This document shows positions 30,747-48,834 of a stretch of 64,000 nucleotides of DNA, piece after piece. Position 1 is the stretch's first letter, and every line of letters starts with the position of its first letter. This stretch comes from Candidatus Methanomethylicia archaeon (GTDB taxonomy: Archaea > Thermoproteota > Methanomethylicia > Culexarchaeales > Culexarchaeaceae), in the NCBI GenBank assembly GCA_038727515.1, contig JAVYVS010000002.1, forward strand, positions 75,683 through 139,682, given 5' to 3'. The notes below the pieces were generated by a model. It was not told where the DNA came from. It made no database searches and worked only from the letters and a program-made list of their open reading frames with translations. Position numbers and translations under genes: made by a program.

Positions 30747-31088
30747 GTGGTGGCTCTTTTGTGGTCTGAACTATTATATTCTCCAGTAATAGTTTTCATA
30801 TTGATACTGATTTTAATGTATATTTCCTTTATATATTTGAAGAGGATTGGTATTAAGCCTAGGGGTAGTGAATTAAGTTTAGAACCTTATGCATGTGGTG
30901 AAGGTACTGATAGATTCCCCCCTGAAAAAGTTCAACTTAATGTTCAGTTATATAGATATGCTCTGTATTTTACAATATTTGATGTTGCAGCTTTCATTTT
31001 GCTATTATCTTTCAATGCAAATATTGTTTATGTTTTAGTTTATGTAGGGATCATATTATCTGCAATATTTTTCCTCCCTAAGAGGTGA
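30747..31088 (+). CDS. NuoA-like membrane subunit of complex-I-like hydrogenase
   Basis: 113 aa, 3 TM helices, conserved LEPYACGE motif. First gene of the nuo-ordered cluster. Confidence 0.7.
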   Translation: MVALLWSELLYSPVIVFILILILMYISFIYLKRIGIKPRGSELSLEPYACGEGTDRFPPEKVQLNVQLYRYALYFTIFDVAAFILLLSFNANIVYVLVYVGIILSAIFFLPKR

Positions 31089-31092
31089 TTTT

Positions 31093-31518
31093 ATGGTTTC
31101 AATTGTAACTTGGTCTAGGGTTAGGAGTCCATGGATATTGTATATGTGTACTGGTGCATGTAATGCATGTGATATTGAAGTTTTAGCTGCTTTAGCTCCT
31201 AAGTATGATGTTGAACGTTTTGGAATTCTACTTAAGGGTAGTCCTAGACATGCTGATGTTCTAGTGGTTACTGGTGCAGTTACTAGGCAAGTTGCCCCTA
31301 GACTTAAAAGGATATATGAGCAAATGCCTGATCCAAAATTTGTTATTGCTGCTGGTACATGTGCAACTTCAGGTGGAGTTTATTGGGGTTGTTATAATGT
31401 TCTTGGTGGTGTTGATAAGGTTATTCCTGTGAGTATGTATATTCCAGGTTGTCCCGTCAGACCTGAAGCTGTTATTGATGGTGTTGCAAAACTCATATCT
31501 AAACTTTTATCTGGTTAA
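31093..31518 (+). CDS. group-4 [NiFe]-hydrogenase small subunit / NuoB homolog
   Basis: Proximal 4Fe-4S ligands CNACDIE (hydrogenase type, unlike the NuoB tandem CC), GTCATSGG and PGCPVRP. Confidence 0.8.
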   Translation: MVSIVTWSRVRSPWILYMCTGACNACDIEVLAALAPKYDVERFGILLKGSPRHADVLVVTGAVTRQVAPRLKRIYEQMPDPKFVIAAGTCATSGGVYWGCYNVLGGVDKVIPVSMYIPGCPVRPEAVIDGVAKLISKLLSG

Positions 31519-31533
31519 TGGAGGTTAAGTATC

Positions 31534-31995
31534 ATGTCGAGTTTTGATGTAAATTTTATTCTTAAAGATATTTCAAATGCATTTCCAAATAGGATTTTAG
31601 ATTATAGATTTGATGGTCCTAGGAGTGTATTTATGAGTGTTGATCCAAGTGCTTTACATGATGTTATTAAGTATTTAAAGGATAAATATGATTTAAGGCA
31701 TATTGTAACTATAACTGGGACTGATCTTGGTGATTCCATTGAATTAATCTATCATCTATCTCCTTTAAATCGTAGAATTCTTGTTAATATTAAAGTTAAG
31801 ATTCCTAGGGATAATCCACATTTCCCATCTATCGTTTCAATACTTCCTGGAGCCATTTTATATGAGAGAGAGGTTCATGATCTTTTGGGGGTTGTTTTTG
31901 ATGGCCATCCATCTCTTGAAAGACTTATCCTACCTGATGATTGGCCTGATGGTGTTTATCCCCTTAGGAAAGATTGGAAGGTGGAGGTGAAGTAG
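31534..31995 (+). CDS. NuoC-like (30 kDa) subunit
   Basis: 153 aa. Its position and size fit the NuoC/HycE N-terminal-domain family. Confidence 0.65.
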   Translation: MSSFDVNFILKDISNAFPNRILDYRFDGPRSVFMSVDPSALHDVIKYLKDKYDLRHIVTITGTDLGDSIELIYHLSPLNRRILVNIKVKIPRDNPHFPSIVSILPGAILYEREVHDLLGVVFDGHPSLERLILPDDWPDGVYPLRKDWKVEVK

Positions 31996-31996
31996 T

Positions 31997-33172
31997 TTGA
32001 GTTATTATACTATTCCAATAGGACCTCAGCATCCAGCTATTAAAGAAGCTTTTCAATTCAACTTTGTTTTAGATGGTGAAGTTATTGTTGATGTTAAACC
32101 TAGATTTGGATTTGTTCATAGAGGTATTGAGAAGGCTATGGAGCTTAGAACTTGGGTTCAAGGTATATTCTTGGCTGAACGTATATGTGGTATATGTAAT
32201 GTTCCACATACAACATGCTATTGTCTTGCTGTGGAAAAGGTTTATGGTATAGATGTTCCTGAACGTGCTAAGTATCTTAGGATCATAATTAATGAGTTAA
32301 ATAGGATTCATAGCCATCTATTGTGGATTGGGGTTTTAGGTATGGAGTTAGGTTTCCATACTGTGTTTATGTATGTTTGGAGGGATAGGGAGAGAGTTAT
32401 GGATCTCGTTGAAATGATTAGTGGTAATAGAGTTACTCCATCTATGAATTGTATTGGTGGAGTTGTTTATGATATTACCCCTGAAATGGAGCCAATTATT
32501 AAGAGGAATCTAGATTATCTTGAGGAGAGAACTAAGTATTATAAGAAGGTGCTCATGGAAGATCCTAGTTTAAAGGCTAGAACTGAAGGTGTAGGTGTTT
32601 TAAGTAAGGATAAAGCTTTAGATCTATGTGCAGTAGGTCCTACTGCTAGAGCTTCTGATGTTAAGAGTGATGTTAGATTTGATGATCCATATACATTGTA
32701 TGATGAAATAGATTTCAATATGGTGACTTATTCAACATGTGATGTTTGGGGTAGAGCTATGGTTAGGGTTGATGAAACTATTGAATCTATAAAAGCTATT
32801 AGGCATGCACTTGAGAAGATGCGTCCAGGGCCAATAAATGTTAAGGTTAAACGTATTCCACCTATTGGTGAAGCTACTGCTAGAGTTGAAGCTCCTAGAG
32901 GTGAACTTCTACACTATGTTAAATCTGATGGCAAAGAGGTTCCATATAGAGCTAAAATGAGGACTCCAACATTAGCCAATATACCAGCATTATGTGAAAT
33001 GTTAAAGGGGCATTATATTGCTGATATACCTGCTATTGTTGCTAGTATTGATCCATGTTATTGTTGTACTGAGAGGTTAATGTTCACAGATATTGGGAAT
33101 GGTAAAAGTTGGATCTGGAGTTATGATGAACTTAGAAGGTATAGTCTTAAATATTATGGTTTGGGGGTGTAA
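31997..33172 (+). CDS. [NiFe]-hydrogenase large subunit (NuoD/HycE/EchE homolog) with intact Ni-Fe ligands
   Basis: N-terminal L1 motif ERICGICNVPH and C-terminal L2 motif IDPCYCCTER are both present. A 30-aa extension follows the conserved Arg, as in HycE. The body aligns to HycE (GFVHRGIEK, VPERA, RIHSHLLW, APRGEL). Confidence 0.85.
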   Translation: MSYYTIPIGPQHPAIKEAFQFNFVLDGEVIVDVKPRFGFVHRGIEKAMELRTWVQGIFLAERICGICNVPHTTCYCLAVEKVYGIDVPERAKYLRIIINELNRIHSHLLWIGVLGMELGFHTVFMYVWRDRERVMDLVEMISGNRVTPSMNCIGGVVYDITPEMEPIIKRNLDYLEERTKYYKKVLMEDPSLKARTEGVGVLSKDKALDLCAVGPTARASDVKSDVRFDDPYTLYDEIDFNMVTYSTCDVWGRAMVRVDETIESIKAIRHALEKMRPGPINVKVKRIPPIGEATARVEAPRGELLHYVKSDGKEVPYRAKMRTPTLANIPALCEMLKGHYIADIPAIVASIDPCYCCTERLMFTDIGNGKSWIWSYDELRRYSLKYYGLGV

Positions 33173-34134
33173 TGATGGATCCATTAATATTTATTCTTAG
33201 AATCTTAATATTTCCTGGTATACTCTTCCTACTATTTCTAGCATTTATATTTGAGTGGGTTGATAGAAAGGCTTATGCTAGATTTCAAAATAGGATTGGC
33301 CCCCTATATGCTGGCCCTAGTGGAATCCTTCAACCATTAGCTGATTTCATTAAGCTTATGGCTAAAGAGGATATAACCCCAAAATATGTTGATTCCATCT
33401 TCTTCAATAACATTCCAATACTTGCAGTTGTTATACCATTATTTGCATCTCTATATATACCATTAGATGGTTCTCCAATTTTAATTCCCTTTGAAGGTGA
33501 TATCGTCCTACTACTAACTTTAATGACTATTTACACTATTTTTGTATTCATTGCTGGTTGGGCATCAACCAATAGGTTTAGTATTGTTGGTGCCACTAGA
33601 GCTATTCTACAATTTTTAGCTTATGAAATTCCAATGTTTATTTCAGCAGCTTCCGTTGTTATGTATGTTGGATCTACTTCTGTAACAATTATATCTCAAA
33701 ATCAATTGATACCTTTAGCTTTACTTCAACCAATAGGATTCATAGTCTTTATTACAGCTCTTCAAGCAGAACTTGAACGTATACCCTTCGATATCCCTGA
33801 AGCTGAAAGTGAAATTGTTGCTGGATGGCTTACTGAGTATTGTGGTCCAAAACTTGCTTTCCTAAGACTTGCTGAAGATTTAAAGCTAGTCTTTGGATCT
33901 GCTTTAGCTACCGCATTATTTCTAGGTGGTGGAAGCGGCCCTATACTTCCACCTATCGTCTGGTTTATTTTAAAGATGCTCTTCATAGTATTACTAAGCT
34001 CTTATATTAGATCTTTATTTGCTAGGTTGAGGATTGATCAAATGGTTTCAGGTTGTTGGAGGATTTTAATTCCATTATCAATTCTACAATTTGTTTTAAG
34101 TAGGTTTTTGGGGGTTGGTTTTAGATGGCTATGA
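33172..34134 (+). CDS. NuoH-like membrane subunit
   Basis: 320 aa, 8 TM helices, quinone-site-region motifs (RFQNRIGP, EAESEIVAG..EY). Confidence 0.8.
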   Translation: MMDPLIFILRILIFPGILFLLFLAFIFEWVDRKAYARFQNRIGPLYAGPSGILQPLADFIKLMAKEDITPKYVDSIFFNNIPILAVVIPLFASLYIPLDGSPILIPFEGDIVLLLTLMTIYTIFVFIAGWASTNRFSIVGATRAILQFLAYEIPMFISAASVVMYVGSTSVTIISQNQLIPLALLQPIGFIVFITALQAELERIPFDIPEAESEIVAGWLTEYCGPKLAFLRLAEDLKLVFGSALATALFLGGGSGPILPPIVWFILKMLFIVLLSSYIRSLFARLRIDQMVSGCWRILIPLSILQFVLSRFLGVGFRWL

Positions 34135-34481
34135 TACGTGAAGTATTTAAACACCTATTTAAACGACCAGTTACAGTTAAATATCCATTTGAGAGAACTC
34201 CTACTGCTGAGAGGTATAGGGGGAAGCATATATTCTATATTGATAGATGTGTTGGTTGTGGATTATGCGCCCGTGAATGTCCAGCTATGGCTATTGAACT
34301 AATTTCCTCAGATAAGACCATTAATGGTAGAAGACCAATATTCTATTTGGATAGATGTATATTTTGTATGCAGTGTGAAAGGATATGTCCCAGGGCAGCT
34401 ATACATTTAACACAATTCTATGAATTGGCTTCCCATGATCGTAAGTTGCTTGTACATAGTGAAGAAAAGGTTAGTTCTTGA
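34125..34481 (+). CDS. NuoI-like 2x[4Fe-4S] ferredoxin subunit
   Basis: CVGCGLCARECP and CIFCMQCERICP. Confidence 0.8.
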   Translation: MAMIREVFKHLFKRPVTVKYPFERTPTAERYRGKHIFYIDRCVGCGLCARECPAMAIELISSDKTINGRRPIFYLDRCIFCMQCERICPRAAIHLTQFYELASHDRKLLVHSEEKVSS

Positions 34482-34576: not shown

Positions 34577-35839
34577 ATGAAGGTTTATGCAGATTTACAT
34601 TTACATTCAAAGTATAGTGGTGGTTCTAGTGTTCAAATGAATATTCCAACATTGGTTTCATATGCTTTAATTAAAGGTTTAAATCTTCTTGGTACTGGTG
34701 ATTGTCTACATCCAAGTTGGCTTAGAGAATTGAAAAACGATCTTGTACATGCTGGTGGAGGATTCTATCATTATAGGCTTAATTCCAACGTTTTCTTTAT
34801 TGTTAATTGTGAAGTTGGTACGGTTTTCGAATTTGGAGGTAAATCTAGAAGGGTTCATCATGTTATTTTAATGCCTAGTTTAGAGGTTGCTGAACAACTT
34901 TCCGATGTTTTATCACGTTATGGTGATGTAATTTCCAATGGGCGTCCAATATTTAATATGCATCCATCAGAACTTGTCGATATAGTTTTTAGTATTGAAT
35001 CCTCTTGTTTCATATTTCCAGCTCATATATGGACTCCTTGGTGGAGTATGTTTGGATCTTTTAGTGGTGTTGATAATGTTAAGGATTGTTATGGTGATAG
35101 AATTGATAAGATTTATGCTATTGAAACTGGTTTGAGTAGTGATCCAGAGATGAATTGGCGTGTAAGTCAATTGGATAGATTTTCAATTCTTAGCTTCTCA
35201 GATTCTCATTCACCATATCCATTTAGACTTGGTAGAGAAGCTTGTTTATTCGATCTTAATGATATGAATTATAGAGAACTTATAGAAGCTATTAAATTTA
35301 GGGAGAAGGGTAAGTTCTTAATGACTATAGAAGTTGATCCAGCTTATGGTAAATATCATTGGTCTGGTCATAGGAATTGTAATGTTGGGCCTATCCCTCC
35401 TGAAGAAGCTAGAAAAATGAATTATAAATGCCCAGTTTGTGGGAAAAAACTTACTAAGGGTGTTGATGATAGAGTTGAAGAACTTGCTGATAGAAGTAGA
35501 GGATTTAGACCTAAAAGTTATATACCCTTCATAAAGGTTTTACCATTACAAACTATAATAGCTTTCAGTATGGGTGTTAGTGAAGATGATTTTTCTAAAT
35601 TTAATAGTGGTAGAATTTGGGATATATATTCCAATCTAGTTTCTAAATTTGGTTCTGAATTTAATGTTTTATTGAATGCTCCAATAAATGAGATTGCAAA
35701 AATATCTTCTCAAACAATTGCATCTTACATTAAATGTATGAGGGAAGGTAAATATTCAATTACACCTGGTTTTGATGGTGTTTATGGCAAGATAAGTACA
35801 TTTGGTTTGAAAATGGATTTAAGAAACTTTATAACCTAA
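34577..35839 (+). CDS. endoQ: endonuclease Q (EndoQ), deaminated-base DNA repair nuclease
   Basis: PHP-like metal site DLHLHSKYSGG, a central region like Pyrococcus EndoQ (GTGDCLHPSWL, RRVHHVI, PAHIWTPW, LSSDPEMNW, FSDSHSPYPFRLGRE) and a Zn finger YKCPVCGKKLTKGVDDRVEELAD. Confidence 0.85.
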   Translation: MKVYADLHLHSKYSGGSSVQMNIPTLVSYALIKGLNLLGTGDCLHPSWLRELKNDLVHAGGGFYHYRLNSNVFFIVNCEVGTVFEFGGKSRRVHHVILMPSLEVAEQLSDVLSRYGDVISNGRPIFNMHPSELVDIVFSIESSCFIFPAHIWTPWWSMFGSFSGVDNVKDCYGDRIDKIYAIETGLSSDPEMNWRVSQLDRFSILSFSDSHSPYPFRLGREACLFDLNDMNYRELIEAIKFREKGKFLMTIEVDPAYGKYHWSGHRNCNVGPIPPEEARKMNYKCPVCGKKLTKGVDDRVEELADRSRGFRPKSYIPFIKVLPLQTIIAFSMGVSEDDFSKFNSGRIWDIYSNLVSKFGSEFNVLLNAPINEIAKISSQTIASYIKCMREGKYSITPGFDGVYGKISTFGLKMDLRNFIT

Positions 35840-35840
35840 A

Positions 35841-36515
35841 TCAACCTTTACCCTTCTCTATCAACAATTCCTTCCATCTACCTTTAATTATCATTATTAT
35901 AAGCCCCCTCGGGCCTTCTCTATCAAGTATATCTGCAACCTTTATCCAATCTATTTTCAATATGCTTAATGTTGTTATTGTTAGTATTATCAATGAAATC
36001 AATATTCCATATATATTTTCTTCACCGAAAACTATGTTTAAGTATTCCGTAAAGTATTTTCCAGTTAATGCTACTACTGTACTTAATATGATCTTTCCTA
36101 GCGTTGTAGCTATGAAGAATTTTATGAAGCTATATTTTATGAGTCCTAGTGGTATTATCACTACATCATCTGGTGATGGCGTTACTGTTACGAAGAATAC
36201 TGCTATCGCTCCATACTTACCCAATAATTCTTTAAATTTCTCTATTTGCTTTCTCTTTTCTTCACTTGTAATTAATTTACTTCCTTCAAATCCCAACATA
36301 TATACTACGCTTTTTCCAATTGCTCCACCAAAGCCACTCACAATTCCAAGTATTATTGGGTCTACTTGTAGGTATCCTGCCATATAATATATTGCCAATA
36401 AGTAGGGTATTGGTAGAAATGGTATAAAATTTCCAAGTATAGATACAATTAAAGCTCCAATATATCCATAGTTTAAGGCTATCTTCATCATTAAGTCAGA
36501 GATCCATTCAAACAA
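35841..36515 (-). CDS. DedA/SNARE-associated (VTT-domain) membrane protein
   Basis: 224 aa, with re-entrant-loop motifs (...GNFIPFLPIPY... and ...G.S..FF..) typical of the DedA family. Confidence 0.65.
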   Translation of the reverse strand: MFEWISDLMMKIALNYGYIGALIVSILGNFIPFLPIPYLLAIYYMAGYLQVDPIILGIVSGFGGAIGKSVVYMLGFEGSKLITSEEKRKQIEKFKELLGKYGAIAVFFVTVTPSPDDVVIIPLGLIKYSFIKFFIATTLGKIILSTVVALTGKYFTEYLNIVFGEENIYGILISLIILTITTLSILKIDWIKVADILDREGPRGLIIMIIKGRWKELLIEKGKG

Positions 36516-36618: not shown

Positions 36619-36876
36619 GTGAAGTTGTTGAGCTTTAATTTTGTTAGTTTGATTTTAGGTGTTTCCATAGTGGCTTTAGCAGTTTTAAGTTTGGAATTTA
36701 AGAAGATTATGCATTCAATCATAACTTTATGTGGTTTTAGTATTGTTTTGGCTATTGCATTCTTCTATTTATCTGCACCATTGGTTGGAGTATTTCAATT
36801 GGCTGTTTTAGCTGGTGCAGTTACAGTATTGTTTCTAGTTGCTTTAATGTTGACTGGTAAAGTGGAGGTGGATTAA
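36619..36876 (+). CDS. NuoJ-like subunit, N-terminal part (split J1)
   Basis: 85 aa, 3 TM helices, ...AVLAGAVTVLFLVALML resembles the NuoJ TM3 region. It is followed 1 nt later by a second small TM ORF. Confidence 0.55.
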   Translation: MKLLSFNFVSLILGVSIVALAVLSLEFKKIMHSIITLCGFSIVLAIAFFYLSAPLVGVFQLAVLAGAVTVLFLVALMLTGKVEVD

Positions 36877-36877: not shown

Positions 36878-37156
36878 TTGAAGTTTAGTGAATTGATTGG
36901 AACTATGTTGGGTTTAGCTTTAGCCTTTATACTCACGCAACTCTTAGTTTATGGTGTTTCTAATGTTGGTTTATTTGCTTATGATAATGCTCCATTAACT
37001 ATTCTAAAGCCTGATTACTCCTTCCATAATCTGGGTGTTTATATAAGTGAACTTTTATGGGTTGATTGCAGTTTTGATGTAATAGCTCAAGCCATACTCA
37101 TATTTGCTTCAGCCATAGGTGTTATTGCACTTTTACGTGAGGAGGTGAAGCATTAA
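36878..37156 (+). CDS. NuoJ-like subunit, C-terminal part (split J2)
   Basis: 92 aa membrane protein between J1 and NuoK, as in Fpo/Nuo operons that have a split J. Confidence 0.45.
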   Translation: MKFSELIGTMLGLALAFILTQLLVYGVSNVGLFAYDNAPLTILKPDYSFHNLGVYISELLWVDCSFDVIAQAILIFASAIGVIALLREEVKH

Positions 37157-37473
37157 TGTCCACTGAACCATACACATTCATAGCTGTTTCAGGAGTTTTA
37201 TTTTGTATTGGCATGTACGGCCTTATGACTAAACGTAATATGATTAAAATGGTTATTTCACTTGAGATAATGTTTAGTTCAGCTATATTGAATTTAGTGA
37301 ATTTTTCATATTTTAGAATTTTTGGATTTATAGACCCAATGGCTCACGTTGTAGCTATAATTGCTATTTCTGTTGAAGCCTGTTTAATAGGTGTTGCTTT
37401 AGCATTTGTTATAAATGCTTATAAACATTATAAGACATTGGACATTAGAGAGTTGAGGAGGTTGAGGTGGTAG
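37156..37473 (+). CDS. NuoK-like subunit
   Basis: 105 aa, 3 TM helices, conserved membrane Glu in SLEIMF. Confidence 0.75.
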   Translation: MSTEPYTFIAVSGVLFCIGMYGLMTKRNMIKMVISLEIMFSSAILNLVNFSYFRIFGFIDPMAHVVAIIAISVEACLIGVALAFVINAYKHYKTLDIRELRRLRW

Positions 37474-38975
37474 GTTTTATGGAAATATTATATCCAATGC
37501 TAATATTAGCATTCTTCGGTGTAACAACGCCAATTATTGGTTGGATTTGTGAGAGGTATGGTTTACGTAATCTTGTTAGCGGTTGGGCTTTATTTGGTTT
37601 TCTAACTTCCCTAATGGCTTGCCTTAAACTAGTAGGTTTACTCTATGAAAAGCCAATTATAAGGTATAGTATATACCAAGCTGTTGATGGTTTTAAAATT
37701 GGCTTTACAGTTTTAGATTGGCTTAGCTTCACATTTACCCTTGGCTTCATCCTTTTAGGTTTAATATCCACTTTGCATTCAATTGATTACATGTCTCATG
37801 ACACAGGTTTACCAGCTTACTACTCCCTACTATTGCTAATGGTTTGCGGTATGATTGGAGTTATTATGGCAGGTGACTTCCTAACGCTATATGTATTCTG
37901 GGAGTTGATGAGCATATCCTCATATTGTTTGGTTGGATTTAGAAAGCATCTCTGGGAGCCTGTGGAAGCAGGCTTCAAATATCTATTGATGAGCGCTGTA
38001 GGTTCAGCCTTCATATTATTCTCAATGTCATATCTATATGGTTTAACTGGATCCTTAAGCTTCGCTCAAATAACTCTCTCCCTAATGAATGCTAAATCTT
38101 CTCCACTACTATACCTACTATTCATATTATTGATCGTAGGCTTCGGCGTTAAAGCTGCTATTGTACCATTTCATTCATGGCTTCCAGATGCACATCCAGC
38201 TGCCCCCAGCCCTATAAGTGCTATGCTTTCAGGTGTAGTAATAAAAACTGGCGTTTATGCAATAATAAGAACTTCATATCTAATCTTTGATGTTTCAATT
38301 GTGGATTATAGATTGATGTTAGCTTTCCTATCAGTATTGACCATGAGTGTTGGAAACATTCTAGCTTTAGTTCAAAAGGATATTAAACGTTTACTTGCAT
38401 ATTCAAGTATAGCTCAAATTGGATATTTACTATTGGCTTTATCCTTAGGAACGGAATTTGGTTTAATGGCTGGTATTGTACACTTCTTTAATCATGCCTT
38501 AATGAAGGGACTTGCATTTCTCTGCGCTGGATCAATCATACATGAACTTAATACGAGGAATCTTGATGAAATTATTGGTGTTGGTAGAAGAATGCCTATA
38601 ACTGGTGTGTCACTATCTATAGCACTTCTCTCACTAGCTGGAATGCCATTTCTCAATGGTTTTATAAGTAAGTATTTAATATTTGCAGCAGCCATAGATG
38701 CTCAAGCATATTTATTGACAGCCATAGGATTACTAAATAGTGCTATTGGAGTAGTATACTATATCCGTGTAATACAGACAATATTTAGGAAGCCTATTGA
38801 AAGTGTTATGAAGGCAAGTGAATCTTCACCATTTATACTGTCTTCCTTAATAATCCTATCAGTACTTTGCATAGTCTTAGGCGTATGGCCTCAACCATTA
38901 TCTTCAATGGCTGAAACAGCAGCACACTTCACAATGCAAAAACTCCTTTACATAAGGTCGATAATACCATTATAA
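37467..38975 (+). CDS. NuoN/NuoM-like antiporter-type subunit
   Basis: 502 aa, Mrp-antiporter fold motifs (FVFWELMS, WLPDAHPAAPSPISAML, AYSSIAQIGY). Confidence 0.75.
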   Translation: MVGFMEILYPMLILAFFGVTTPIIGWICERYGLRNLVSGWALFGFLTSLMACLKLVGLLYEKPIIRYSIYQAVDGFKIGFTVLDWLSFTFTLGFILLGLISTLHSIDYMSHDTGLPAYYSLLLLMVCGMIGVIMAGDFLTLYVFWELMSISSYCLVGFRKHLWEPVEAGFKYLLMSAVGSAFILFSMSYLYGLTGSLSFAQITLSLMNAKSSPLLYLLFILLIVGFGVKAAIVPFHSWLPDAHPAAPSPISAMLSGVVIKTGVYAIIRTSYLIFDVSIVDYRLMLAFLSVLTMSVGNILALVQKDIKRLLAYSSIAQIGYLLLALSLGTEFGLMAGIVHFFNHALMKGLAFLCAGSIIHELNTRNLDEIIGVGRRMPITGVSLSIALLSLAGMPFLNGFISKYLIFAAAIDAQAYLLTAIGLLNSAIGVVYYIRVIQTIFRKPIESVMKASESSPFILSSLIILSVLCIVLGVWPQPLSSMAETAAHFTMQKLLYIRSIIPL

Positions 38976-40664: not shown

Positions 40665-40732
40665 ATGCATAAATCAATAACGTTTATAAATAAATCAACA
40701 TTATTGTAGTAATAGTTGTTGGAGGAAGAAAT

Positions 40733-41182: not shown

Positions 41183-41195
41183 GTGGAGTGCCTAA

Positions 41196-41864: not shown

Positions 41865-41880
41865 TAAATATTATAAATAT

Positions 41881-42936: not shown

Positions 42937-42991
42937 AGTTATCAGCCTACACTTTATTCTTTAATACGCTAAATACCAATATTGTTATTCA

Positions 42992-43543
42992 CTATTTATA
43001 CTTAATTGGTTTTAAGATTATGTATGTTGTTATTATCAATAACCATATTACTACTCCAATAACTACTCCAATTCCAGCATAAAACTCACTTATCCTACTT
43101 CCAATAGTATATCCCATTAATATTAATGGTATCATTAAAGATAGTAATGCTATACTCCTACTTATCATGAATCTAAATAATCTCTTACCTTCATCTTCAA
43201 TTCTTTCATCTACAACTTTCTCCTTCACCTCTTTGACTTTCTCTTTTACTTTAATACTTTCTTTCTCCTCTAATCCCCCTCTTCTTGAGATAACGGTTGC
43301 CTTTTCAATTACTTCAGATAATGTATTGTATGGTTTATTATGCCTTAAGTTTATTCTACATGTTTCATATAATATTTTCATTGGTATCCATTCTTCTCCA
43401 TTAATCCATTTTTCTAATTCTTCTTCCTTTATCTTTAATCTTTTTAGATATTCATCTCTTCCTAATGTTTCAATAGCTGTTTTTAAAGCTTTCAAAACTT
43501 TTTCTGTAGGTTCAATATATATTTCTTCTGTCATTTCATCCAT
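42992..43543 (-). CDS. hypothetical protein with C-terminal double TM anchor
   Basis: 183 aa with a charged coiled-coil-like N-terminal part and two C-terminal TM helices, upstream of atpC on the same strand. Confidence 0.4.
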   Translation of the reverse strand: MDEMTEEIYIEPTEKVLKALKTAIETLGRDEYLKRLKIKEEELEKWINGEEWIPMKILYETCRINLRHNKPYNTLSEVIEKATVISRRGGLEEKESIKVKEKVKEVKEKVVDERIEDEGKRLFRFMISRSIALLSLMIPLILMGYTIGSRISEFYAGIGVVIGVVIWLLIITTYIILKPIKYK

Positions 43544-43650: not shown

Positions 43651-45825
43651 GTGGATGATTTGCTTAATTATTCACCTTGGCTTGTTTGGATTATTCCAAT
43701 TATAGGTGCACTTTTAACACCTTTAATTGCACGTTTAGGTGATAGAATTCGAGATATCTCTGCTGTCTTCTTCTCTTTTCTAGCTGCTTTAATGGCTACA
43801 GTAAACTTTTCATATGTTATGTCTGGAGGTATGTATATTCCAGGGGTTGGATATGTTAAGGTTCCCATTGATTGGCGTTTTAAATGGTTTATTGTTCCTG
43901 GGTTCCATTTAGATGTTGGAGTTTTACTGGATCCTCTTAGTGCTTTAATGGGTGTTATTGTTGCTTGGATTTCATTTTTAATTATGATTTATAGCTTGGG
44001 TTATATGCATGGTGAAGAAGGTTTAACTAGATACTGGTTTTTCATGAATTTCTTTATTGGGAATATGCTTCTACTCGTCATGTCCGATAATATTCTACAG
44101 ATGTTATTTGGGTGGGAGGGTGTTGGACTATGTAGTTATCAATTGATTGGCTTCTATTATAGTGATGAAAGGAAGCGTTGGATTGGCAATGTTCCTCCAT
44201 CACATGCTGGTATGAAAGCCTTCATAACCACTAAAATTGGAGATATATCCCTCATGATAGCTTCCTTCATAATATTCACTATATCTGGAACTTTTAATTT
44301 CCTAGATCTTCAAGCAAATTATGAATGGATAATTGAACTTGCTAAGATGGGGTTGATAATTCCAGTTGTATTATTATTCTTTGGTGGACCTATTGGGAAA
44401 TCTGCTCAATTTCCATTGCATGAATGGCTTCCAGAGGCTATGGCAGGCCCTACTTCAGTTTCAGCATTAATACATGCTGCTACTATGGTTAAAGCTGGAG
44501 TTTACCTTGTTGCTAGAATGGTTCCAATATTTTATGGAAGTTTTACCCATGCGATTGCACATGTTCATGGATTAGCCATTGAAAACTTAATTTTACAAGC
44601 TAGAAACAGCTTCTTCTTAACTGTTGCATGGATTGGTGCATTTACAGCTTTTCTAGCTGCTACTCAAGCCATGGTTAGTAGAGAATTGAAGAAAGTTCTT
44701 GCGTATTCTACGATTTCTCAAATTGGTTATATGATGTTAGGTTTAGGTGCTGGAGGTTTAATGGAAAATGTAGCTATAGGTTTTGTTGCTGGAGTATTTC
44801 ATTTAGCTAGTCATGCGATCTTTAAAGCTTTGCTATTTATGGCTGCTGGTGCAGTTATTCATGCATGTGAGAGTACTGATATGTTTAATATGGGTGGTAT
44901 TAGACGTGATATGCCTATAACTTTTGTTTGTATGCTTATTGGAGCTTTATCTCTTTCAGGTATACCTCCACTTAGTGGTTTTTGGAGTAAAGAAGCTGTT
45001 TTCACAGCTTGTTTAGTTTCTGGTCAGTATATACTATTGGCTTTTGCAGCTGTAACTGCCGCTATAACATTCTTCTATAGTTTAAGAATGATTGCAATAA
45101 CATTTCTTGGAGAGAAGAGTGAGCATTTAGAGGAATTGGAACATGAAGGTCATCATGTTCATGAAGTTTCAAAGGTTATGTGGATTCCATATGCAATATT
45201 AGCTATCTCAACTATTGCCATAGGTTTGATAGGTCCATTTTTCGAAGAGTACTTACATGAATTCCTAGAGCCTTCTATTCATATGATTCATCATGAAATT
45301 GCAATTTCAAGTGTTGTTTATGGTGCTGAAGTTGAAGTTTCTGGTTTTCCAACGAAATTAACAACTATGCTAATAACTTTATGCATGCTTATCTTAGGAG
45401 GTTATCCAGCATATTTAATGTATATTTCACGTAAAGTTGATCCTGAATCCTTTGTCGAATCTCATGGGTTAAAGGGCATATACAACTTCTTATGGAATAG
45501 ATGGTATATTAATCCAACCTATTATGGTGTATTTGTATATCCTTTGATTCATGGTAGTGTTAAAGTCTTTAGAGGCTTTGAGAAAGCTGTTATTGATAGA
45601 TTTAATTATGTTTTAGCGAATATAGTATTGAGCTTTAGCAATATTGTTTATAGATATTTTGAAAAGCCTATTTTAGATGGATTTAATTATTTTGTAGCTA
45701 ATGTTTTCATGGTGTTTTCACAGATTTTCAGAAGAATTCAAACTGGTGTTTCTTCATTTAACATTATGGGTATTGGTTTAGGTATACTAATATTGATATT
45801 AATGATACTATTCGGTTTTATTTAA
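43651..45825 (+). CDS. NuoL-like antiporter-type subunit
   Basis: 724 aa with a core antiporter fold (WLPEAMAGPTSVSALIHAATMV) and a long C-terminal extension for the lateral helix. Confidence 0.8.
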   Translation: MDDLLNYSPWLVWIIPIIGALLTPLIARLGDRIRDISAVFFSFLAALMATVNFSYVMSGGMYIPGVGYVKVPIDWRFKWFIVPGFHLDVGVLLDPLSALMGVIVAWISFLIMIYSLGYMHGEEGLTRYWFFMNFFIGNMLLLVMSDNILQMLFGWEGVGLCSYQLIGFYYSDERKRWIGNVPPSHAGMKAFITTKIGDISLMIASFIIFTISGTFNFLDLQANYEWIIELAKMGLIIPVVLLFFGGPIGKSAQFPLHEWLPEAMAGPTSVSALIHAATMVKAGVYLVARMVPIFYGSFTHAIAHVHGLAIENLILQARNSFFLTVAWIGAFTAFLAATQAMVSRELKKVLAYSTISQIGYMMLGLGAGGLMENVAIGFVAGVFHLASHAIFKALLFMAAGAVIHACESTDMFNMGGIRRDMPITFVCMLIGALSLSGIPPLSGFWSKEAVFTACLVSGQYILLAFAAVTAAITFFYSLRMIAITFLGEKSEHLEELEHEGHHVHEVSKVMWIPYAILAISTIAIGLIGPFFEEYLHEFLEPSIHMIHHEIAISSVVYGAEVEVSGFPTKLTTMLITLCMLILGGYPAYLMYISRKVDPESFVESHGLKGIYNFLWNRWYINPTYYGVFVYPLIHGSVKVFRGFEKAVIDRFNYVLANIVLSFSNIVYRYFEKPILDGFNYFVANVFMVFSQIFRRIQTGVSSFNIMGIGLGILILILMILFGFI

Positions 45826-45853
45826 TTTAAATTTTCTTTATATTAATTTTGGA

Positions 45854-47284
45854 GTGGTGAATTTGAAAGTTAGAGTTAGAGGTATATACTCTACAGCTCT
45901 ATCTAAACTTTTAATTGATGAAGGTTATAGTATTGTTCAACCGTCAAAGGTTATTAAGGATAGATTTAATATTGGCGATGAAATGGATTATATGTTTTAT
46001 GATGTTGATATTCTTGATCGTGATGATAAGCATGGAGTATACATTTTGACTTCCAATGAGAATTTAAGAACTATCATAGACATTATTCATAGAAATCTTT
46101 TTGATGCTATTATTAGAATTGCACCGTATGATGTCAATGGAATTTATAAAGGTGTTGTAGAAGCTATTGATAAAGTTAGAAATTTAGCTTTTATATCCAT
46201 TATGCCTAAGCTCTTAGGTGTATTACCGTTATCTAGAGATTCCCCTCTTAAAGTTGGTGATGAAATTCTTGTTCAAGTGGATAAGAGTAGTTTAGGTTTA
46301 AGGATTCCACGTTTAACTACACGTATAGGTTTAGCTGGTAGGTATGTTGTATTATTTAAAGGTGATGGTTTAAAGTTTAGTAGGAAGCTTACTGGAAGTT
46401 TCATTGATTATATGAATATATCTGAGACATTAAAAGGAGTTCTGCCTGAAACTTTTGGAGTTATCATTAGATCTTCTTTTAAAAGTGCTTCTAAAGATGA
46501 TATTTTAAATGAAATTTCAAATTTATTGGATAACTACAATCGATTGATGGATTTATTTAGGGTTTCACCTTCAAGAAGGCTGATAGTTAATGGGTTAAAG
46601 GTATTGGATGTTGAGTTTCCATATAATTCTAAGAGGATTCTTGATTCAATTAGGAGTTTTGTTACTTCAACAATAAATTTTCATCATTACTTTAAGATTT
46701 TAGGTGAAAATTATTCTAAAATGGTTGATAATGTTGAATCCCTATTATCTAAAGGTTTGAATGTAGATGATACCTTACTTAATATAGATCTTCTTAGAGG
46801 GGAATTTGCTTCTAATTTGAGAGTTATTGAACATGTTAAATTGAATGGAAAAGTCATATTGTTTAGGAACATTGAATCCATTGATTTTAATGGTAAGTTT
46901 TTAACTATTTATAGGAGGGTTAAATCGCCTGGATTTTATGATGGTTTAAACATAGTTAAGATGGTTGGTGATAAAATTGTTACGAAGATTGGTTTTGGAG
47001 ATTGGTATTATGTTTCTCGATATTATTCTTCTGATGGTCAATTTCTAGGTTCATATATTAACATAAATACTCCAATTGAAATTTATGGTGATAGATTGAG
47101 ATATGTGGATTTAGAAGTTGATGTATGTGTTAAATCAAATGGTGAATTTAAAATTTTAGATATGGATCATTTATATAAAGCCTTTAAAATGGGTGTTGTA
47201 TCTGAGAGTTTATTTAGATTCATATCCAAACTTGTGGATAATATTAAATCTAAAATTATACATGGAGAATTTGATGATATTTGA
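45854..47284 (+). CDS. FAU-1/RNase E-like (DUF402) RNA-binding protein candidate
   Basis: 476 aa. The N-terminus (VRVRGIYSTALSKLLIDEGYSIVQPS) and overall length resemble archaeal FAU-1. Assigned from recall only. Confidence 0.45.
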   Translation: MVNLKVRVRGIYSTALSKLLIDEGYSIVQPSKVIKDRFNIGDEMDYMFYDVDILDRDDKHGVYILTSNENLRTIIDIIHRNLFDAIIRIAPYDVNGIYKGVVEAIDKVRNLAFISIMPKLLGVLPLSRDSPLKVGDEILVQVDKSSLGLRIPRLTTRIGLAGRYVVLFKGDGLKFSRKLTGSFIDYMNISETLKGVLPETFGVIIRSSFKSASKDDILNEISNLLDNYNRLMDLFRVSPSRRLIVNGLKVLDVEFPYNSKRILDSIRSFVTSTINFHHYFKILGENYSKMVDNVESLLSKGLNVDDTLLNIDLLRGEFASNLRVIEHVKLNGKVILFRNIESIDFNGKFLTIYRRVKSPGFYDGLNIVKMVGDKIVTKIGFGDWYYVSRYYSSDGQFLGSYININTPIEIYGDRLRYVDLEVDVCVKSNGEFKILDMDHLYKAFKMGVVSESLFRFISKLVDNIKSKIIHGEFDDI

Positions 47285-47337
47285 ATAATAAAGGTTTTAT
47301 ATTGACTTGAGATAAATTTTGTTGTATTTATTGGGGT

Positions 47338-48834
47338 GTGGTTTGCGTGTCGTTTGAAGGCTTAGTTTTATCATTAATTTTAGTTCCAATATGCTTTCTA
47401 CCGGTAACGTATATAGCTGGTAGACGCCTTGGTAGTAAATGTGGTTGGGTCACCTTTGTCCCATTACTATACTCATTTTTAATATCATTAATACTTCTAT
47501 CCGCTGTTTCTCTTAAGGGTTCCATCTACGTGGTATTTCCACTAGCTCCTTCTGTTGGTTTAAATTTTGGATTTCTAATTGATGGTTTAAGTTTACCCAT
47601 AGTGTTTACAATAACATTGTTATGTATGGTTGTTTCAATATTCTCAATACCCTACATGGAGCATCATATTGGTGAAGATAAAGCTCAACATGCAGCATAC
47701 TATGCCTTATATCTACTTTATGCATTGGGGATGGTTGGTACAGCTTTATCCACAAATTTAATTCAATTCTACTTCTTCTGGGAGCTTATGCTTCTTCCAT
47801 CTTGGGCTTTAATAAATATTTGGGGTTATGGTGAAAGGGAGAAGATTGCATTGAAATACTTTATATATACACATGTGGGTGCATTAGCTCTTTTAGCTGG
47901 TATATTAAGCTTATACTCCATATTTGGGACATTTGAACTTCCATTAATAATATCGTTAAGTAAGTTTATTCATGTTGGAGATATGATTAAGTGGATTACC
48001 ATAGCCATGTTCTTTGGATTTGCTGTTAAAATGGCTATAGTCCCATTACATACATGGCTTCCAGATGCACATGCTGAAGCTCCAACACCTATAAGTGCAC
48101 TTTTATCTCCAGCTATGATTGGACTTGGTGGATATGCAACTGTTAGGATAATATATTCTGCTTTTCCAGAGGTTTGGGATTCCCTCAGTTTCATATTGAG
48201 TCTTCTAGCTTTAATAACAATGGTTTATTCTGGTGCTATGGCTTTAGCTCAAGATGATATTAAGAGGCTCTTAGCATATTCCAGTGCTTCACAGATGGGA
48301 TATATTTTAATGGGTCTTGCAAGTGCAGATCCTATGGGTATTGGTGGAGCTATGTATCATTATGTCAGTCATGGAACTTGTAAAGCTATACTCTTCATGG
48401 TTGCAGGGGCAATAATTCTTGAAGCTCATGGTTTGAGAAGTATATCCAAACTTGGAGGTTTAGCTAAGAAAATGCCTTTAACAGCTACAATGGCGTTAAT
48501 AGGATTTCTAGGTATTGCTGGTACACCTCCATTAAATGGTTTTCAAAGTGAATGGCTTATATTTACTGGTGCATTTCATGGAGCTATTGAAGCTCATGAT
48601 ACCTTAAGACTTATTGTAGTTGCACTTGGACTTATTGGAAGTGTATTAACAGCTGGTTATGCCCTTTGGACTATGAGGAGAGTATTCTTTGGAGAATTAC
48701 GTGAAGGTTTAGAAGAAGTTCATGAACCATCAATATACGTTTTAGCTCCAATGATGGTCCTAGCAATATTCACAGTTATACTTGGCATATACCCAAGGCT
48801 TTTAATGGATTTATTAACATCCTTTCTAAGTTAA
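47338..48834 (+). CDS. NuoM/NuoN-like antiporter-type subunit
   Basis: 498 aa with motifs FFWELMLLPS, WLPDAHAEAPTPISALL and AYSSASQMGY. Confidence 0.75.
   Translation: MVCVSFEGLVLSLILVPICFLPVTYIAGRRLGSKCGWVTFVPLLYSFLISLILLSAVSLKGSIYVVFPLAPSVGLNFGFLIDGLSLPIVFTITLLCMVVSIFSIPYMEHHIGEDKAQHAAYYALYLLYALGMVGTALSTNLIQFYFFWELMLLPSWALINIWGYGEREKIALKYFIYTHVGALALLAGILSLYSIFGTFELPLIISLSKFIHVGDMIKWITIAMFFGFAVKMAIVPLHTWLPDAHAEAPTPISALLSPAMIGLGGYATVRIIYSAFPEVWDSLSFILSLLALITMVYSGAMALAQDDIKRLLAYSSASQMGYILMGLASADPMGIGGAMYHYVSHGTCKAILFMVAGAIILEAHGLRSISKLGGLAKKMPLTATMALIGFLGIAGTPPLNGFQSEWLIFTGAFHGAIEAHDTLRLIVVALGLIGSVLTAGYALWTMRRVFFGELREGLEEVHEPSIYVLAPMMVLAIFTVILGIYPRLLMDLLTSFLS

What the first reader, a model, noticed from the sequence alone, without database searches (positions are those of the whole stretch)
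30747..48834. Complex-I-like 11-subunit cluster whose NuoD and NuoB homologs are bona fide [NiFe]-hydrogenase subunits
The gene order A-B-C-D-H-I-J-K-(N/M)-L-(M/N) mirrors a nuo operon lacking E/F/G. The NuoD homolog (31997-33172) still keeps both Ni-Fe ligand pairs (RICGICNVPH and DPCYCC-TER) and a ~30-aa extension after the conserved Arg, like HycE, which needs endopeptidase processing. The NuoB homolog has the hydrogenase-type CNxCDIE box rather than the NuoB tandem CC. True complex I, Fpo and MBS have lost some or all of these ligands. A full complex-I membrane arm (A, H, J, K, L, M, N) combined with an apparently catalytic [NiFe] site is an unusual and possibly uncharacterised hydrogenase/complex-I intermediate.
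Basis: partly seen in the sequence, partly recalled or inferred. Interest (0 to 1): 0.8.

Follow-up and report, generated by a model that had tools for sequence, protein, structure and literature searches.

The report
Complex-I-shaped [NiFe] hydrogenase, already described
This archaeal (Culexarchaeum) locus encodes a membrane hydrogenase that keeps a working-looking nickel-iron site on a complex-I-type proton-pumping arm; this enzyme type was already described from genomes in 2021-2022 ("Hfo", group 4g) but has never been studied biochemically.

Summary
The window (about 32% GC, Candidatus Culexarchaeum, Thermoproteota) encodes homologues of NuoA, B, C, D, H, I, J, K, N, L and M and no NuoE/F/G. 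The 391-aa NuoD homologue keeps all four [NiFe] cysteines. They align with the L1 and L2 motifs of MbhL and HycE and are invariant in 121 family members. Its 31-aa tail after the L2 arginine aligns with the HycE tail. The NuoB homologue has the hydrogenase-type CxxC.

Two corrections apply. The cluster is not contiguous: eight unrelated genes (endonuclease Q, DedA, A-ATPase I, K and C, FAU-1 and two unknowns) split it into three blocks, and this layout is conserved across Culexarchaeia. NuoJ is also split into two ORFs.

Loh et al. 2021 described this architecture as "Hfo", an Fpo-like 11-subunit [NiFe] hydrogenase of HydDB group 4g. Kohtz et al. 2022 listed the 87%-identical Culexarchaeum orthologue as a group 4g catalytic subunit and reported hyp and hycI genes in those genomes.

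The most likely function is reversible, ion-translocating ferredoxin:H+ oxidoreduction. No member has been characterised biochemically or structurally. One small extra: the M-type subunit has a conserved Gly where complex I has its central TM8 Lys.

The parts
30747..31088 (+). NuoA/FpoA-like membrane subunit (113 aa)
   Evidence: Pfam Oxidored_q4, 3.2e-6, above the curated cutoff. It is conserved directly upstream of the small subunit in loci L001-L006.
31093..31518 (+). [NiFe]-hydrogenase small subunit (NuoB homologue, 141 aa) carrying one proximal [4Fe-4S] cluster
   Evidence: Pfam Oxidored_q6, 2.7e-33. The best PDB match is MbhJ (6cfw_J, 2.7e-47). Cys23-x-x-Cys26 aligns with the MbhJ CxxC where complex I has CC; Cys90 (GTCATSGG) and Cys120 (GCP) are also present.
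31534..31995 (+). NuoC homologue (153 aa)
   Evidence: Pfam Complex1_30kDa, 3.5e-34.
31997..33172 (+). [NiFe]-hydrogenase large (catalytic) subunit, the NuoD homologue (391 aa). L1 uses C64 and C67, L2 uses C354 and C357, and a 31-aa tail follows R360.
   Evidence: Pfam Complex1_49kDa plus NiFeSe_Hases. PDB matches are MbhL 1.1e-83, HycE 6.3e-77 and Nqo4 7.7e-75, with the cysteines aligned to L1 and L2 and the tail aligned to the HycE tail. The ligands are invariant in 121 homologues. Orthologues at 75-87% identity (loci L002-L004) are listed as HydDB group 4g in Kohtz et al. 2022.
33172..34134 (+). NuoH homologue (320 aa), the junction between the catalytic module and the membrane arm
   Evidence: Pfam NADHdh, 5.6e-93. 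E. coli NuoH scores 1.7e-49 against 6.9e-27 for MbhM. The PFDxPEAExE loop is conserved.
34125..34481 (+). NuoI homologue (118 aa), a 2x[4Fe-4S] ferredoxin-like subunit and the presumed entry point for electrons from ferredoxin
   Evidence: Pfam Fer4 families. Two CxxCxxCxxxCP motifs are visible in the translation. The role as ferredoxin acceptor is inferred by analogy with MbhN and FpoI.
36619..36876 (+). NuoJ N-terminal part as a separate small subunit (85 aa), MbhD-like
   Evidence: Pfam Oxidored_q3 1.3e-8 and MbhD 1.1e-7. The best PDB matches are MbhD (6cfw_D, 3.9e-5) and MbsD, ahead of NuoJ. It is conserved in loci L001-L003, L005 and L006 and in L089.
36878..37156 (+). Second small membrane ORF (92 aa), presumed to be the C-terminal part of NuoJ
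   Evidence: It has no Pfam, NCBIfam or PDB match. It is conserved between J1 and K in L001-L003, L005 and L006. An equivalent 91-aa ORF without a family sits in the Bathyarchaeota cluster L089. The assignment rests on position only.
37156..37473 (+). NuoK homologue (105 aa)
   Evidence: Pfam Oxidored_q2, 1.6e-23. Both membrane glutamates (SLEIMF and SVEACL) are visible in the translation.
37467..38975 (+). Antiporter-like subunit of NuoN type (502 aa)
   Evidence: Pfam Proton_antipo_M, 5e-82. NCBIfam NDH_I_N scores 278 bits, below its cutoff. The TM5 Glu, TM7 Lys, TM8 Lys and TM12 Lys (ISKY) were read from the translation.
43651..45825 (+). Antiporter-like subunit of NuoL type (724 aa) with the long C-terminal extension (lateral-helix region)
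   Evidence: Pfam Proton_antipo_N, _M and _C. NCBIfam NDH_I_L scores 497 bits against a cutoff of 407.5. NdhF (6hum_F) scores 3.5e-101 against 7.2e-40 for MbhH, and the alignment extends to residue 630-657 of the query.
47338..48834 (+). Antiporter-like subunit of NuoM type (498 aa). The TM12 Glu is kept, and the central TM8 Lys is replaced by Gly.
   Evidence: NCBIfam NDH_I_M scores 339 bits against a cutoff of 263.8. In the alignment to P. denitrificans NuoM (8qby_M, 2.1e-61), LLKMGGY pairs with MIGLGGY. The Gly is conserved in loci L010-L025.

Best explanation
The twelve ORFs encode one membrane-bound, energy-converting group 4 [NiFe] hydrogenase of the 'Hfo' type (an Fpo-like 11-subunit hydrogenase, HydDB group 4g) in a Candidatus Culexarchaeum genome.

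Proposed mechanism, with the basis of each step:
- Reduced ferredoxin donates electrons to the two [4Fe-4S] clusters of the NuoI homologue. This is inferred by analogy with MbhN and FpoI.
- Electrons pass to the single proximal [4Fe-4S] cluster of the small subunit. The ligands are shown to be present.
- Electrons then reach a [NiFe] centre held by C64, C67, C354 and C357 of the large subunit. The ligands and the conserved Glu17/Glu61 are shown. Metal content is inferred.
- At that centre protons are reduced to H2.
- The site occupies the position where complex I binds quinone. Its redox and protonation changes are transmitted through the NuoH/A/J/K junction to three antiporter-like subunits (N, M, L) clamped by the NuoL C-terminal helix. 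These export H+, or possibly Na+. This step is inferred from complex I and MBH structures.
- The large subunit is made as a precursor. Its 31-residue tail would be removed after R360 by a HycI-type protease once the Hyp proteins, encoded elsewhere in the genome, have inserted the metal centre. This is inferred from homology to the HycE tail.

The reaction should be reversible. In a fermentative cell it disposes of ferredoxin electrons as H2 and builds an ion gradient for the A-type ATP synthase. Under high H2 the gradient could drive H2-dependent ferredoxin reduction.
For: - Subunit inventory and domains.
- NiFe ligands aligned with MbhL and HycE, and a HycE-like tail.
- Ligands invariant across 121 homologues, all of which carry a 25-41-aa tail.
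- Hydrogenase-type small subunit closest to MbhJ.
- Quinone ligands of Nqo4 (H38, Y87) replaced by K16 and G65.
- L, M and H subunits of complex-I type with the canonical charged residues.
- Gene order conserved throughout Culexarchaeia.
- The organism, and orthologues at 75-88% identity. The orthologues on three published contigs (87, 79 and 75% identical) are classified as group 4g by HydDB, with hyp and HycI genes in those genomes (Kohtz et al. 2022).
- The same architecture was described and named Hfo by Loh et al. 2021.
- A Bathyarchaeota homologue is flanked by hypF, hypE and hycI.
Against: - No member of group 4g or Hfo has been purified, assayed or solved. Loh et al. say so, and the best PDB hit is only MbhL at 1.1e-83.
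- No hyp or hycI gene lies in the 64-kb window.
- L and M are separated from the other genes by ATPase and RNA-binding-protein genes. Their membership of the same complex is therefore inferred from conserved proximity, not shown.
- Fd-to-H+ electron transfer releases far less energy than NADH-to-quinone transfer. A four-site pump looks over-dimensioned unless H2 is kept very low or some sites are silent. This is my own reasoning.
- The M-type subunit lacks the central TM8 Lys.
- By similarity score alone the large subunit is almost equidistant from MbhL/HycE and Nqo4. It also passes NCBIfam's NuoD equivalog cutoff (381 bits against 360).
- I built no phylogeny of my own.
Confidence: 0.85

Rival explanations
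1. The same complex works physiologically in reverse. It would be an H2-oxidising, ferredoxin-reducing enzyme driven by the ion gradient, playing an Eha/Ehb/Ech-like anaplerotic role. This is what Loh et al. proposed for the Bathyarchaeia Hfo.
For: Loh et al. 2021 argue for this direction in Bathy-6 acetogens. A high H+/2e- ratio from three antiporter-like subunits would suit an uphill reaction (my inference). Culexarchaeia encode several other hydrogenases and can cycle H2.
Against: Kohtz et al. 2022 reconstruct Culexarchaeia as fermentative generalists and assign the group 4g enzyme to ferredoxin oxidation with H2 release. Direction cannot be read from sequence. Both directions use the same machinery, so this is a variant of the best explanation rather than an alternative identity.
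Confidence: 0.3
2. It is a 'headless' Fpo-like or Nuo-like respiratory complex. It would pass ferredoxin electrons to a membrane carrier or a partner such as HdrD, and the cysteines would be an evolutionary relic or bind something other than NiFe.
For: Automatic annotation calls it NuoD. The JGI names of P0001-P0004 say so, and NCBIfam NF004739 scores above its cutoff. The subunit set and the L, M and H subunits are complex-I-like. Fpo-like complexes without FpoFO are known from Methanothrix and Methanomassiliicoccales.
Against: All four Cys, the neighbouring Glu/His/Asp-Pro/Arg and a cleavable-type tail are invariant across 121 sequences down to 55% identity. Relics do not behave this way. 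The quinone-binding His and Tyr of Nqo4 are absent. The small subunit is hydrogenase-type. hypE, hypF and hycI sit next to a homologous cluster. No HdrD or other acceptor module is adjacent.
Confidence: 0.05
3. The genes encode two separate assemblies. One would be an Ech/Mbh-like small hydrogenase (A-B-C-D-H-I, possibly with J-K-N). The other would be an independent L/M antiporter-like module that works with other partners, for example the Ehe hydrogenase of Culexarchaeia or the ATP synthase neighbourhood.
For: The genes lie in three blocks separated by eight unrelated genes, two of them on the opposite strand on either side of L. In the Bathyarchaeota locus L089 no L or M lies within 10 kb of the core. 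Culexarchaeia have other group 4 hydrogenases that need antiporter subunits.
Against: A NuoL-type subunit with the long C-terminal helix region is only known as the clamp of a multi-antiporter arm that includes M, N, J, K and A. Proximity of L and M to the core is conserved across the class. Other loci hold all the genes together (L027, L028, L029). Loh et al. found contiguous 11-gene clusters.
Confidence: 0.1

Closest known systems
Hfo, the Fpo-like 11-subunit [NiFe] hydrogenase (HydDB group 4g, sub-lineage 4g-6) of Bathyarchaeia Bathy-6, with 'Hfo-like' clusters in Ca. Methanomethylicus mesodigestum and Pyrodictium delaneyi (Loh et al. 2021, PMC7886697)
   Same: It has the same 11 subunit types (A, B, C, D, H, I, J, K, L, M, N), no FpoFO or NuoEFG, and a D subunit with intact L1 and L2 motifs. 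No Mrp-type Na+ module genes (MbhA, B, C, F) were seen among the ORFs of the region, though I ran no targeted search. The proposed chemistry is also the same: ferredoxin/H2 coupled to ion translocation. Named Bathyarchaeota and Methanomethylicota homologues are 55-71% identical.
   Different: Here the genes are not one contiguous operon. They form three blocks interleaved with endonuclease Q, DedA, A-ATPase I/K/C and FAU-1 genes. J is split into an MbhD-like ORF plus a second ORF. The M subunit lacks the TM8 Lys. Whether the Bathy-6 enzymes share these last two traits was only partly checked: L089 also has the split J.
Group 4g [NiFe] hydrogenase of Culexarchaeia as catalogued by Kohtz et al. 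2022 (PMC9723716)
   Same: It is the orthologous gene. L002, L003 and L004 are the very contigs whose genes are listed as the 'Group 4g catalytic subunit', at 87, 79 and 75% identity to the window protein. The predicted role is the same.
   Different: The supplementary files held for that paper list only the catalytic subunit (no 'Nuo' or 'Mbh' rows). The main-text passages I retrieved on 'complex I' and 'group 4g' do not describe the membrane arm either. The window comes from a different population: the nearest database protein is 87% identical, and contig Ga0209394_1000462 matches NuoM at 100%.
Membrane-bound hydrogenase MBH of Pyrococcus furiosus (group 4d; PDB 6CFW)
   Same: It gives the best structural-database matches for the large subunit, the small subunit and J1. 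It shares the NiFe ligands and the Glu equivalent to MbhL E21 (Glu17, invariant). It is ferredoxin-dependent.
   Different: MBH has one full antiporter-like subunit plus an Mrp-derived Na+/H+ module, 14 subunits in all. Here there are three antiporter-like subunits, including a NuoL-type with a lateral-helix region. The H, L and M subunits are much closer to complex I or NDH-1 than to MbhM or MbhH. The deposited MbhL chain ends at the L2 Arg (residue 380 of 380).
Respiratory complex I / 11-subunit Fpo-like complexes (Nuo, Nqo, NDH-1, Fpo)
   Same: The subunit set, the gene order within blocks, the L/M/N triad with conserved Glu/Lys residues, the NuoH loop motifs and the two NuoK glutamates all match.
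   Different: The catalytic site is a NiFe site, not a quinone pocket. The Cys ligands are kept, Nqo4 H38 and Y87 are replaced by K16 and G65, and the small subunit has CxxC instead of CC. There is no NADH or F420 input module.
Formate hydrogenlyase complexes of enterobacteria (FHL-1 Hyc, PDB 7Z0S; FHL-2 Hyf)
   Same: The HycE-like C-terminal tail aligns residue by residue after the L2 Arg. From my own knowledge, Hyf also combines a NiFe site with three antiporter-like subunits (see also PMC7384014, listed).
   Different: There is no formate dehydrogenase or HycB/HycF-type electron-input chain here. The large subunit is not fused to NuoC. The host is archaeal, and the A, J and L (lateral helix) subunits are of complex-I type.

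Membership tests
Group 4 [NiFe] hydrogenase (large plus small subunit pair) | L1 motif C[GS][ILV]C[AGNS]xxH with two Ni-ligand Cys near the N-terminus | tested here: met
   C64-G-I-C67-N-V-P-H71 aligns with CGICSFSH of MbhL. It is invariant in 121 homologues.
Group 4 [NiFe] hydrogenase (large plus small subunit pair) | L2 motif [DE][PL]Cx[AGST]Cx[DE][RL] with two Cys near the C-terminus | tested here: met
   D352-P-C354-Y-C-C357-T-E-R360 aligns with DPCLSCTDR of MbhL and DPCYSCTDR of HycE. Position 5 is Cys rather than A/G/S/T, as it is in 29 of the 121 family members.
Group 4 [NiFe] hydrogenase (large plus small subunit pair) | Small subunit with a single proximal [4Fe-4S] cluster ligated by CxxC...C...C(P) rather than the NuoB CC | tested here: met
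   C23-N-A-C26, C90 and C120. The best match is MbhJ, 2.7e-47.
Group 4 [NiFe] hydrogenase (large plus small subunit pair) | Maturation machinery (HypA-F and a HycI-type endopeptidase) in the genome | tested here: inconclusive
   These genes are absent from the 64-kb window. They are reported for Culexarchaeia MAGs, including the contig of L010, and lie next to the Bathyarchaeota homologue. The genome of this window itself is not available.
Group 4 [NiFe] hydrogenase (large plus small subunit pair) | Ni/Fe content and H2 turnover | not testable with these tools
   This needs biochemistry. No group 4g enzyme had been characterised as of Loh et al. 2021.
Hfo / HydDB group 4g (Fpo-like 11-subunit hydrogenase) | Eleven Nuo/Fpo subunit types A, B, C, D, H, I, J, K, L, M, N without FpoFO or NuoEFG | tested here: met
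   All eleven types were found and no E, F, G or FpoF/O genes. J is split in two and the genes lie in three blocks.
Hfo / HydDB group 4g (Fpo-like 11-subunit hydrogenase) | Contiguous gene cluster in Fpo/Nuo order | tested here: not met
   Eight unrelated genes interrupt the cluster, and this is conserved in Culexarchaeia. Order within blocks is Nuo-like. I treat this as a feature of the original description rather than of the enzyme.
Hfo / HydDB group 4g (Fpo-like 11-subunit hydrogenase) | Large subunit classified as 4g by HydDB or by phylogeny (near 4g-6) | not tested
   I ran no HydDB classification or tree. Orthologues at 75-87% identity are listed as 4g in Kohtz et al. 2022. Loh et al. 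place the Methanomethylicus homologue next to 4g-6.
Respiratory complex I / Fpo (NuoD, FpoD type) | Loss of the NiFe cysteines, and a quinone or phenazine pocket with the Nqo4 His38 and Tyr87 equivalents | tested here: not met
   The cysteines are retained. His38 is Lys16 and Tyr87 is Gly65 in the alignment to 2fug_4.
Respiratory complex I / Fpo (NuoD, FpoD type) | NuoB with tandem Cys-Cys ligation of cluster N2 | tested here: not met
   The sequence is CNAC, not CC.
MBH (group 4d, Mrp-linked) | Mrp-derived Na+/H+ module (MbhA, B, C, F) and a single full antiporter-like subunit | tested here: not met
   No homologues of these subunits appear among the ORFs of the region. Three antiporter-like subunits are present instead. 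The L, M and H subunits are closer to complex I.

The most novel reading that the evidence does not exclude
In Culexarchaeia the Hfo-type hydrogenase may be a stoichiometry-tuned mosaic. It combines an Mbh-like catalytic core and split J subunit with complex-I-type H, L and M subunits. The M pump has lost its central TM8 lysine (Lys to Gly, conserved across the class and in homologues at 52-53% identity). This could silence or alter one pumping site, so that a four-site complex-I arm matches the small free energy of ferredoxin-to-proton electron transfer. The conserved interleaving of its genes with the membrane-sector genes of the A-type ATP synthase (I, K, C) might reflect co-regulation of the gradient maker and the gradient user.
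Probability: 0.12. Interest if true: 0.55.

Novelty: already known. Interest (0 to 1): 0.3.

Why it matters
Enzymes of this type are the closest living link between the ancestral energy-converting hydrogenases and respiratory complex I. They place a NiFe proton-reducing site where complex I binds quinone, yet already carry the full L/M/N pumping arm. A structure, or a measured H+/2e- ratio, would show how a low-energy reaction drives (or is driven by) a complex-I-type pump. It would also show which features of the arm predate the switch to quinone.

That significance was already set out by Loh et al. 2021. This window adds another, somewhat rearranged, example from a hot-spring archaeon. It also gives a caution for annotators. 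Curated NuoD models (NCBIfam NF004739) score this hydrogenase above threshold, so pipelines label it 'NADH-quinone oxidoreductase subunit D'.

Tried and rejected
- I looked for hyp and hycI genes in the window by reading all ORFs of at least 90-100 aa. I also ran tblastn with HypE, HypF and HycI from the Bathyarchaeota locus L089. Nothing scored better than E = 0.36.
- I tried to identify the 92-aa ORF after J1 with Pfam, NCBIfam and the PDB. None gave a match, so it is assigned by position only.
- The 222-aa and 183-aa ORFs between the ATPase genes gave no family hits even at E up to 1. The idea that the 222-aa ORF is the ATPase E subunit stays a guess.
- I considered that the intervening 420-aa gene might be a hydrogenase accessory protein. 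It is endonuclease Q, with PfuEndoQ at 1.7e-66, so I rejected that idea.
- I considered a decayed or relic NiFe site. The invariance of the ligands across 121 sequences rules this out.
I relied on the published classifications instead.
- I did not run structure prediction, because the returned values would not give the geometry of the metal site.
- A search for later work using the name 'Hfo' found only the original paper.

Full report
**What is in the window.** The region 30747-48834 lies in a low-GC (about 32%) archaeal sequence. On the + strand it carries twelve ORFs with these Pfam or NCBIfam assignments:
- NuoA: 30747-31088
- NuoB: 31093-31518
- NuoC: 31534-31995
- NuoD: 31997-33172
- NuoH: 33172-34134
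- NuoI: 34125-34481
- A short NuoJ/MbhD-like protein: 36619-36876
- An unassigned 92-aa membrane ORF: 36878-37156
- NuoK: 37156-37473
- Three antiporter-like subunits of N, L and M type: 37467-38975, 43651-45825 and 47338-48834

The cluster is not contiguous, however.
- Between NuoI and J lie endonuclease Q (34577-35839; PfuEndoQ 1.7e-66) and a DedA/VTT protein on the minus strand.
- Between N and L lie A-type ATPase subunits I and K, an unknown 222-aa ORF, ATPase subunit C (minus strand) and an unknown 183-aa ORF (minus strand).
- Between L and M lies a FAU-1-like RNase E/G-DUF402 protein.

**The catalytic pair.** phmmer against all PDB chains puts P. furiosus MbhL first (6cfw_L, 1.1e-83). 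E. coli HycE follows (7z0s_E, 6.3e-77), then T. thermophilus Nqo4 (7.7e-75).
- LAERICGICNVPH lines up with LAERMCGICSFSH of MbhL.
- SIDPCYCCTER lines up with SIDPCLSCTDR of MbhL and with DPCYSCTDR of HycE.
- The 31 residues after Arg360 align along their length with the HycE tail (RLMFTDIGNGKSWIWSYDELRRYSLK against RMTVVDVRKKKSKVVPYKELERYSIE).
- Against Nqo4 the same columns read MDYLHS and DPVM, so complex I has lost the ligands. The quinone-binding His38 and Tyr87 of Nqo4 correspond to Lys16 and Gly65 here.

In a MAFFT alignment of the protein with its 120 best database relatives (55-88% identity), C64, C67, C354, C357, E17, E61, H71, D352, P353 and R360 are invariant. Every sequence has 25-41 residues after the Arg.

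The 141-aa NuoB homologue is closest to MbhJ (2.7e-47). It has C23-N-A-C26 where complex I has the tandem CC, plus C90 and C120.

**The membrane arm is a mosaic.**
- The L subunit matches cyanobacterial NdhF (3.5e-101) and bacterial NuoL far better than MbhH (7.2e-40) or MrpA. The alignment runs into the C-terminal extension that forms the lateral helix in complex I.
- NCBIfam's NDH_I_L and NDH_I_M models score above their curated cutoffs.
- NuoH matches E. coli NuoH (1.7e-49) much better than MbhM (6.9e-27), with the PFDxPEAExE loop intact.
- The short J1 protein is closest to the stand-alone MbhD and MbsD subunits. J is split in two, as in MBH.
- The charged residues that define antiporter-like subunits are present in L and N (TM5 Glu, TM7 Lys, TM8 Lys or His, TM12 Lys or Glu).
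- In M the TM5 Glu, TM7 Lys and the M-specific TM12 Glu are present. The central TM8 Lys is a Gly: MIGLGGY against LLKMGGY of P. denitrificans NuoM.
- That Gly is conserved in every Culexarchaeia locus and in homologues at 52-53% identity. Homologues at 45-47% identity keep the Lys.

**Organism and conservation.** A scan of one genome per GTDB species found the closest relatives in these genomes:
- Candidatus Culexarchaeum nevadense (87%)
- A 'Methanomethylicia archaeon' MAG (88%)
- Candidatus Culexmicrobium (75-79%)
- Two further MAGs (74%)

A metagenome contig, Ga0209394_1000462, is 100% identical over NuoM, so it comes from the same population. tblastn of the window's proteins against these loci gave three results.
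- The order A-B-C-D-H-I, EndoQ, DedA(-), J1-J2-K-N is conserved in all Culexarchaeia loci.
- N, atpI, atpK, the 222-aa ORF, atpC(-), the 183-aa ORF(-), L, FAU-1 and M are conserved in that order in Culexarchaeum.
- L, FAU-1 and M are conserved in that order across the class.

The fragmentation is therefore ancestral to the class. It is not an assembly artefact or recent decay.

**Prior knowledge.** Kohtz et al. 2022 (PMC9723716) defined the Culexarchaeia. [quoted passage not shown] It also lists hypA, hypC, hypF and HycI in these genomes. The text proposes that the enzyme oxidises reduced ferredoxin, releases H2 and exports ions, like MBH of P. furiosus.

Loh et al. [quoted passage not shown] They named it Hfo and noted Hfo-like clusters in Ca. 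Methanomethylicus and Pyrodictium delaneyi. [quoted passage not shown] They also stated that no group 4g enzyme has been characterised.

No later paper in the library uses the name Hfo. The 2026 PDB copy contains nothing closer than MbhL. A Bathyarchaeota homologue (55% identical) has the same split J and a divergent N-K-J2-J1 | A-B-C-D-H-I layout. hypF and hypE lie 6 kb upstream of it and hycI 3.5 kb downstream.

**How it most likely works.**
- Shown: a complete set of ligands for a NiFe centre, one proximal and two distal [4Fe-4S] clusters, a HycE-type precursor tail, loss of the quinone ligands, and a complex-I-type arm with three antiporter-like subunits and a lateral-helix L subunit.
- Inferred: reduced ferredoxin feeds the NuoI clusters, and electrons reach the NiFe site and reduce protons. 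The site sits at the position of the complex I quinone pocket. Its redox and protonation cycle drives ion export through the H/A/J/K junction and through N, M and L. The reaction is reversible, so the gradient could also drive H2-dependent ferredoxin reduction, as Loh et al. propose for acetogenic Bathyarchaeia.
- An open point, from my own reasoning, is energetics. Ferredoxin-to-H+ transfer yields roughly 0.1-0.25 V depending on H2 pressure. That is well short of what four protons per two electrons would need. Either H2 is kept very low, the stoichiometry is lower than in complex I, or the enzyme runs mainly in reverse. The missing TM8 Lys in M may be relevant, but this is speculation.

**Rivals.**
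- A 'headless' Fpo-like respiratory complex is very unlikely, given the invariant ligands, the hydrogenase-type small subunit, the absence of quinone ligands and the hyp/hycI linkage in a relative.
- Two separate assemblies (a core hydrogenase plus an independent L/M module) cannot be excluded from sequence. It is disfavoured by the nature of the L subunit and by conserved proximity.
- The direction of catalysis in vivo stays open.

**Verdict.** Novelty is low, and what interest remains lies in the complete lack of experimental data for this class.

Noticed in passing
window 47338-48834 (residues about 251-267 of the NuoM-type subunit); loci L010-L025: The central TM8 lysine of antiporter-like subunits (LLKMGGY in P. 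denitrificans NuoM) is Gly here (SPAMIGLGGY). The substitution is conserved in all Culexarchaeia loci and in homologues at 52-53% identity. Homologues at 45-47% identity keep the Lys.
   Followed up: partly
window 39051-43543, between the nuoN-type and nuoL-type genes: A-type ATP synthase membrane-sector and stalk genes sit inside the hydrogenase gene set: subunit I (39051-40664), a duplicated c/K subunit with a Glu in both hairpins (40733-41182), and subunit C/d (41881-42936, minus strand). Two ORFs without any family accompany them (41196-41864 and 42992-43543). The arrangement is conserved in Culexarchaeum loci L001, L002 and L010-L014.
   Followed up: partly
window 34577-36515: Endonuclease Q (PfuEndoQ 5zb8, 1.7e-66) and a divergently oriented DedA/VTT membrane protein are inserted between nuoI and nuoJ. 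The insertion is conserved in all Culexarchaeia loci examined.
   Followed up: yes
window 45854-47284: A FAU-1-like protein (RNase E/G plus DUF402 domains) lies between the nuoL-type and nuoM-type genes. It is conserved across Culexarchaeia.
   Followed up: partly
window 31997-33172: NCBIfam's NuoD equivalog model NF004739 scores this NiFe large subunit at 381 bits against a cutoff of 360. JGI names its closest relatives 'NADH-quinone oxidoreductase subunit D', while NCBI calls others 'nickel-dependent hydrogenase large subunit'. This points to systematic mis-annotation of the family.
   Followed up: partly
window about 14000-18000: An island of about 40% GC sits in a 31% GC background. It starts at a tRNA-Arg(CCG) gene (14347-14422, minus strand). 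By my reading of the translations it is followed by an integrase-like ORF (14568-15293) and an ArsR-like regulator (16380-16766); neither was scanned. A protein with the CdhE/AcsC-type 'FeS' domain lies at 15751-16332 (Pfam PF04060). This may be an integrated element.
   Followed up: no
locus L089 15586-18024 (Bathyarchaeota contig JAGHBE010000101.1): A second, smaller NuoB-NuoC-NuoD-like-ferredoxin gene set sits next to hycI, about 4 kb from the Hfo-like core. Its D subunit is 373 aa with only a weak NiFeSe_Hases hit. Whether it keeps the Cys ligands was not checked.
   Followed up: no
loci L007, L008, L009 (Armatimonadota, WS1 and Planctomycetota MAGs): Bacterial homologues of the large subunit (46-49% identity) lie in clusters of a different order (K-L-N-B-C-D-H-I). 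hypF and hycI lie nearby in L009. The family therefore extends into bacteria.
   Followed up: partly
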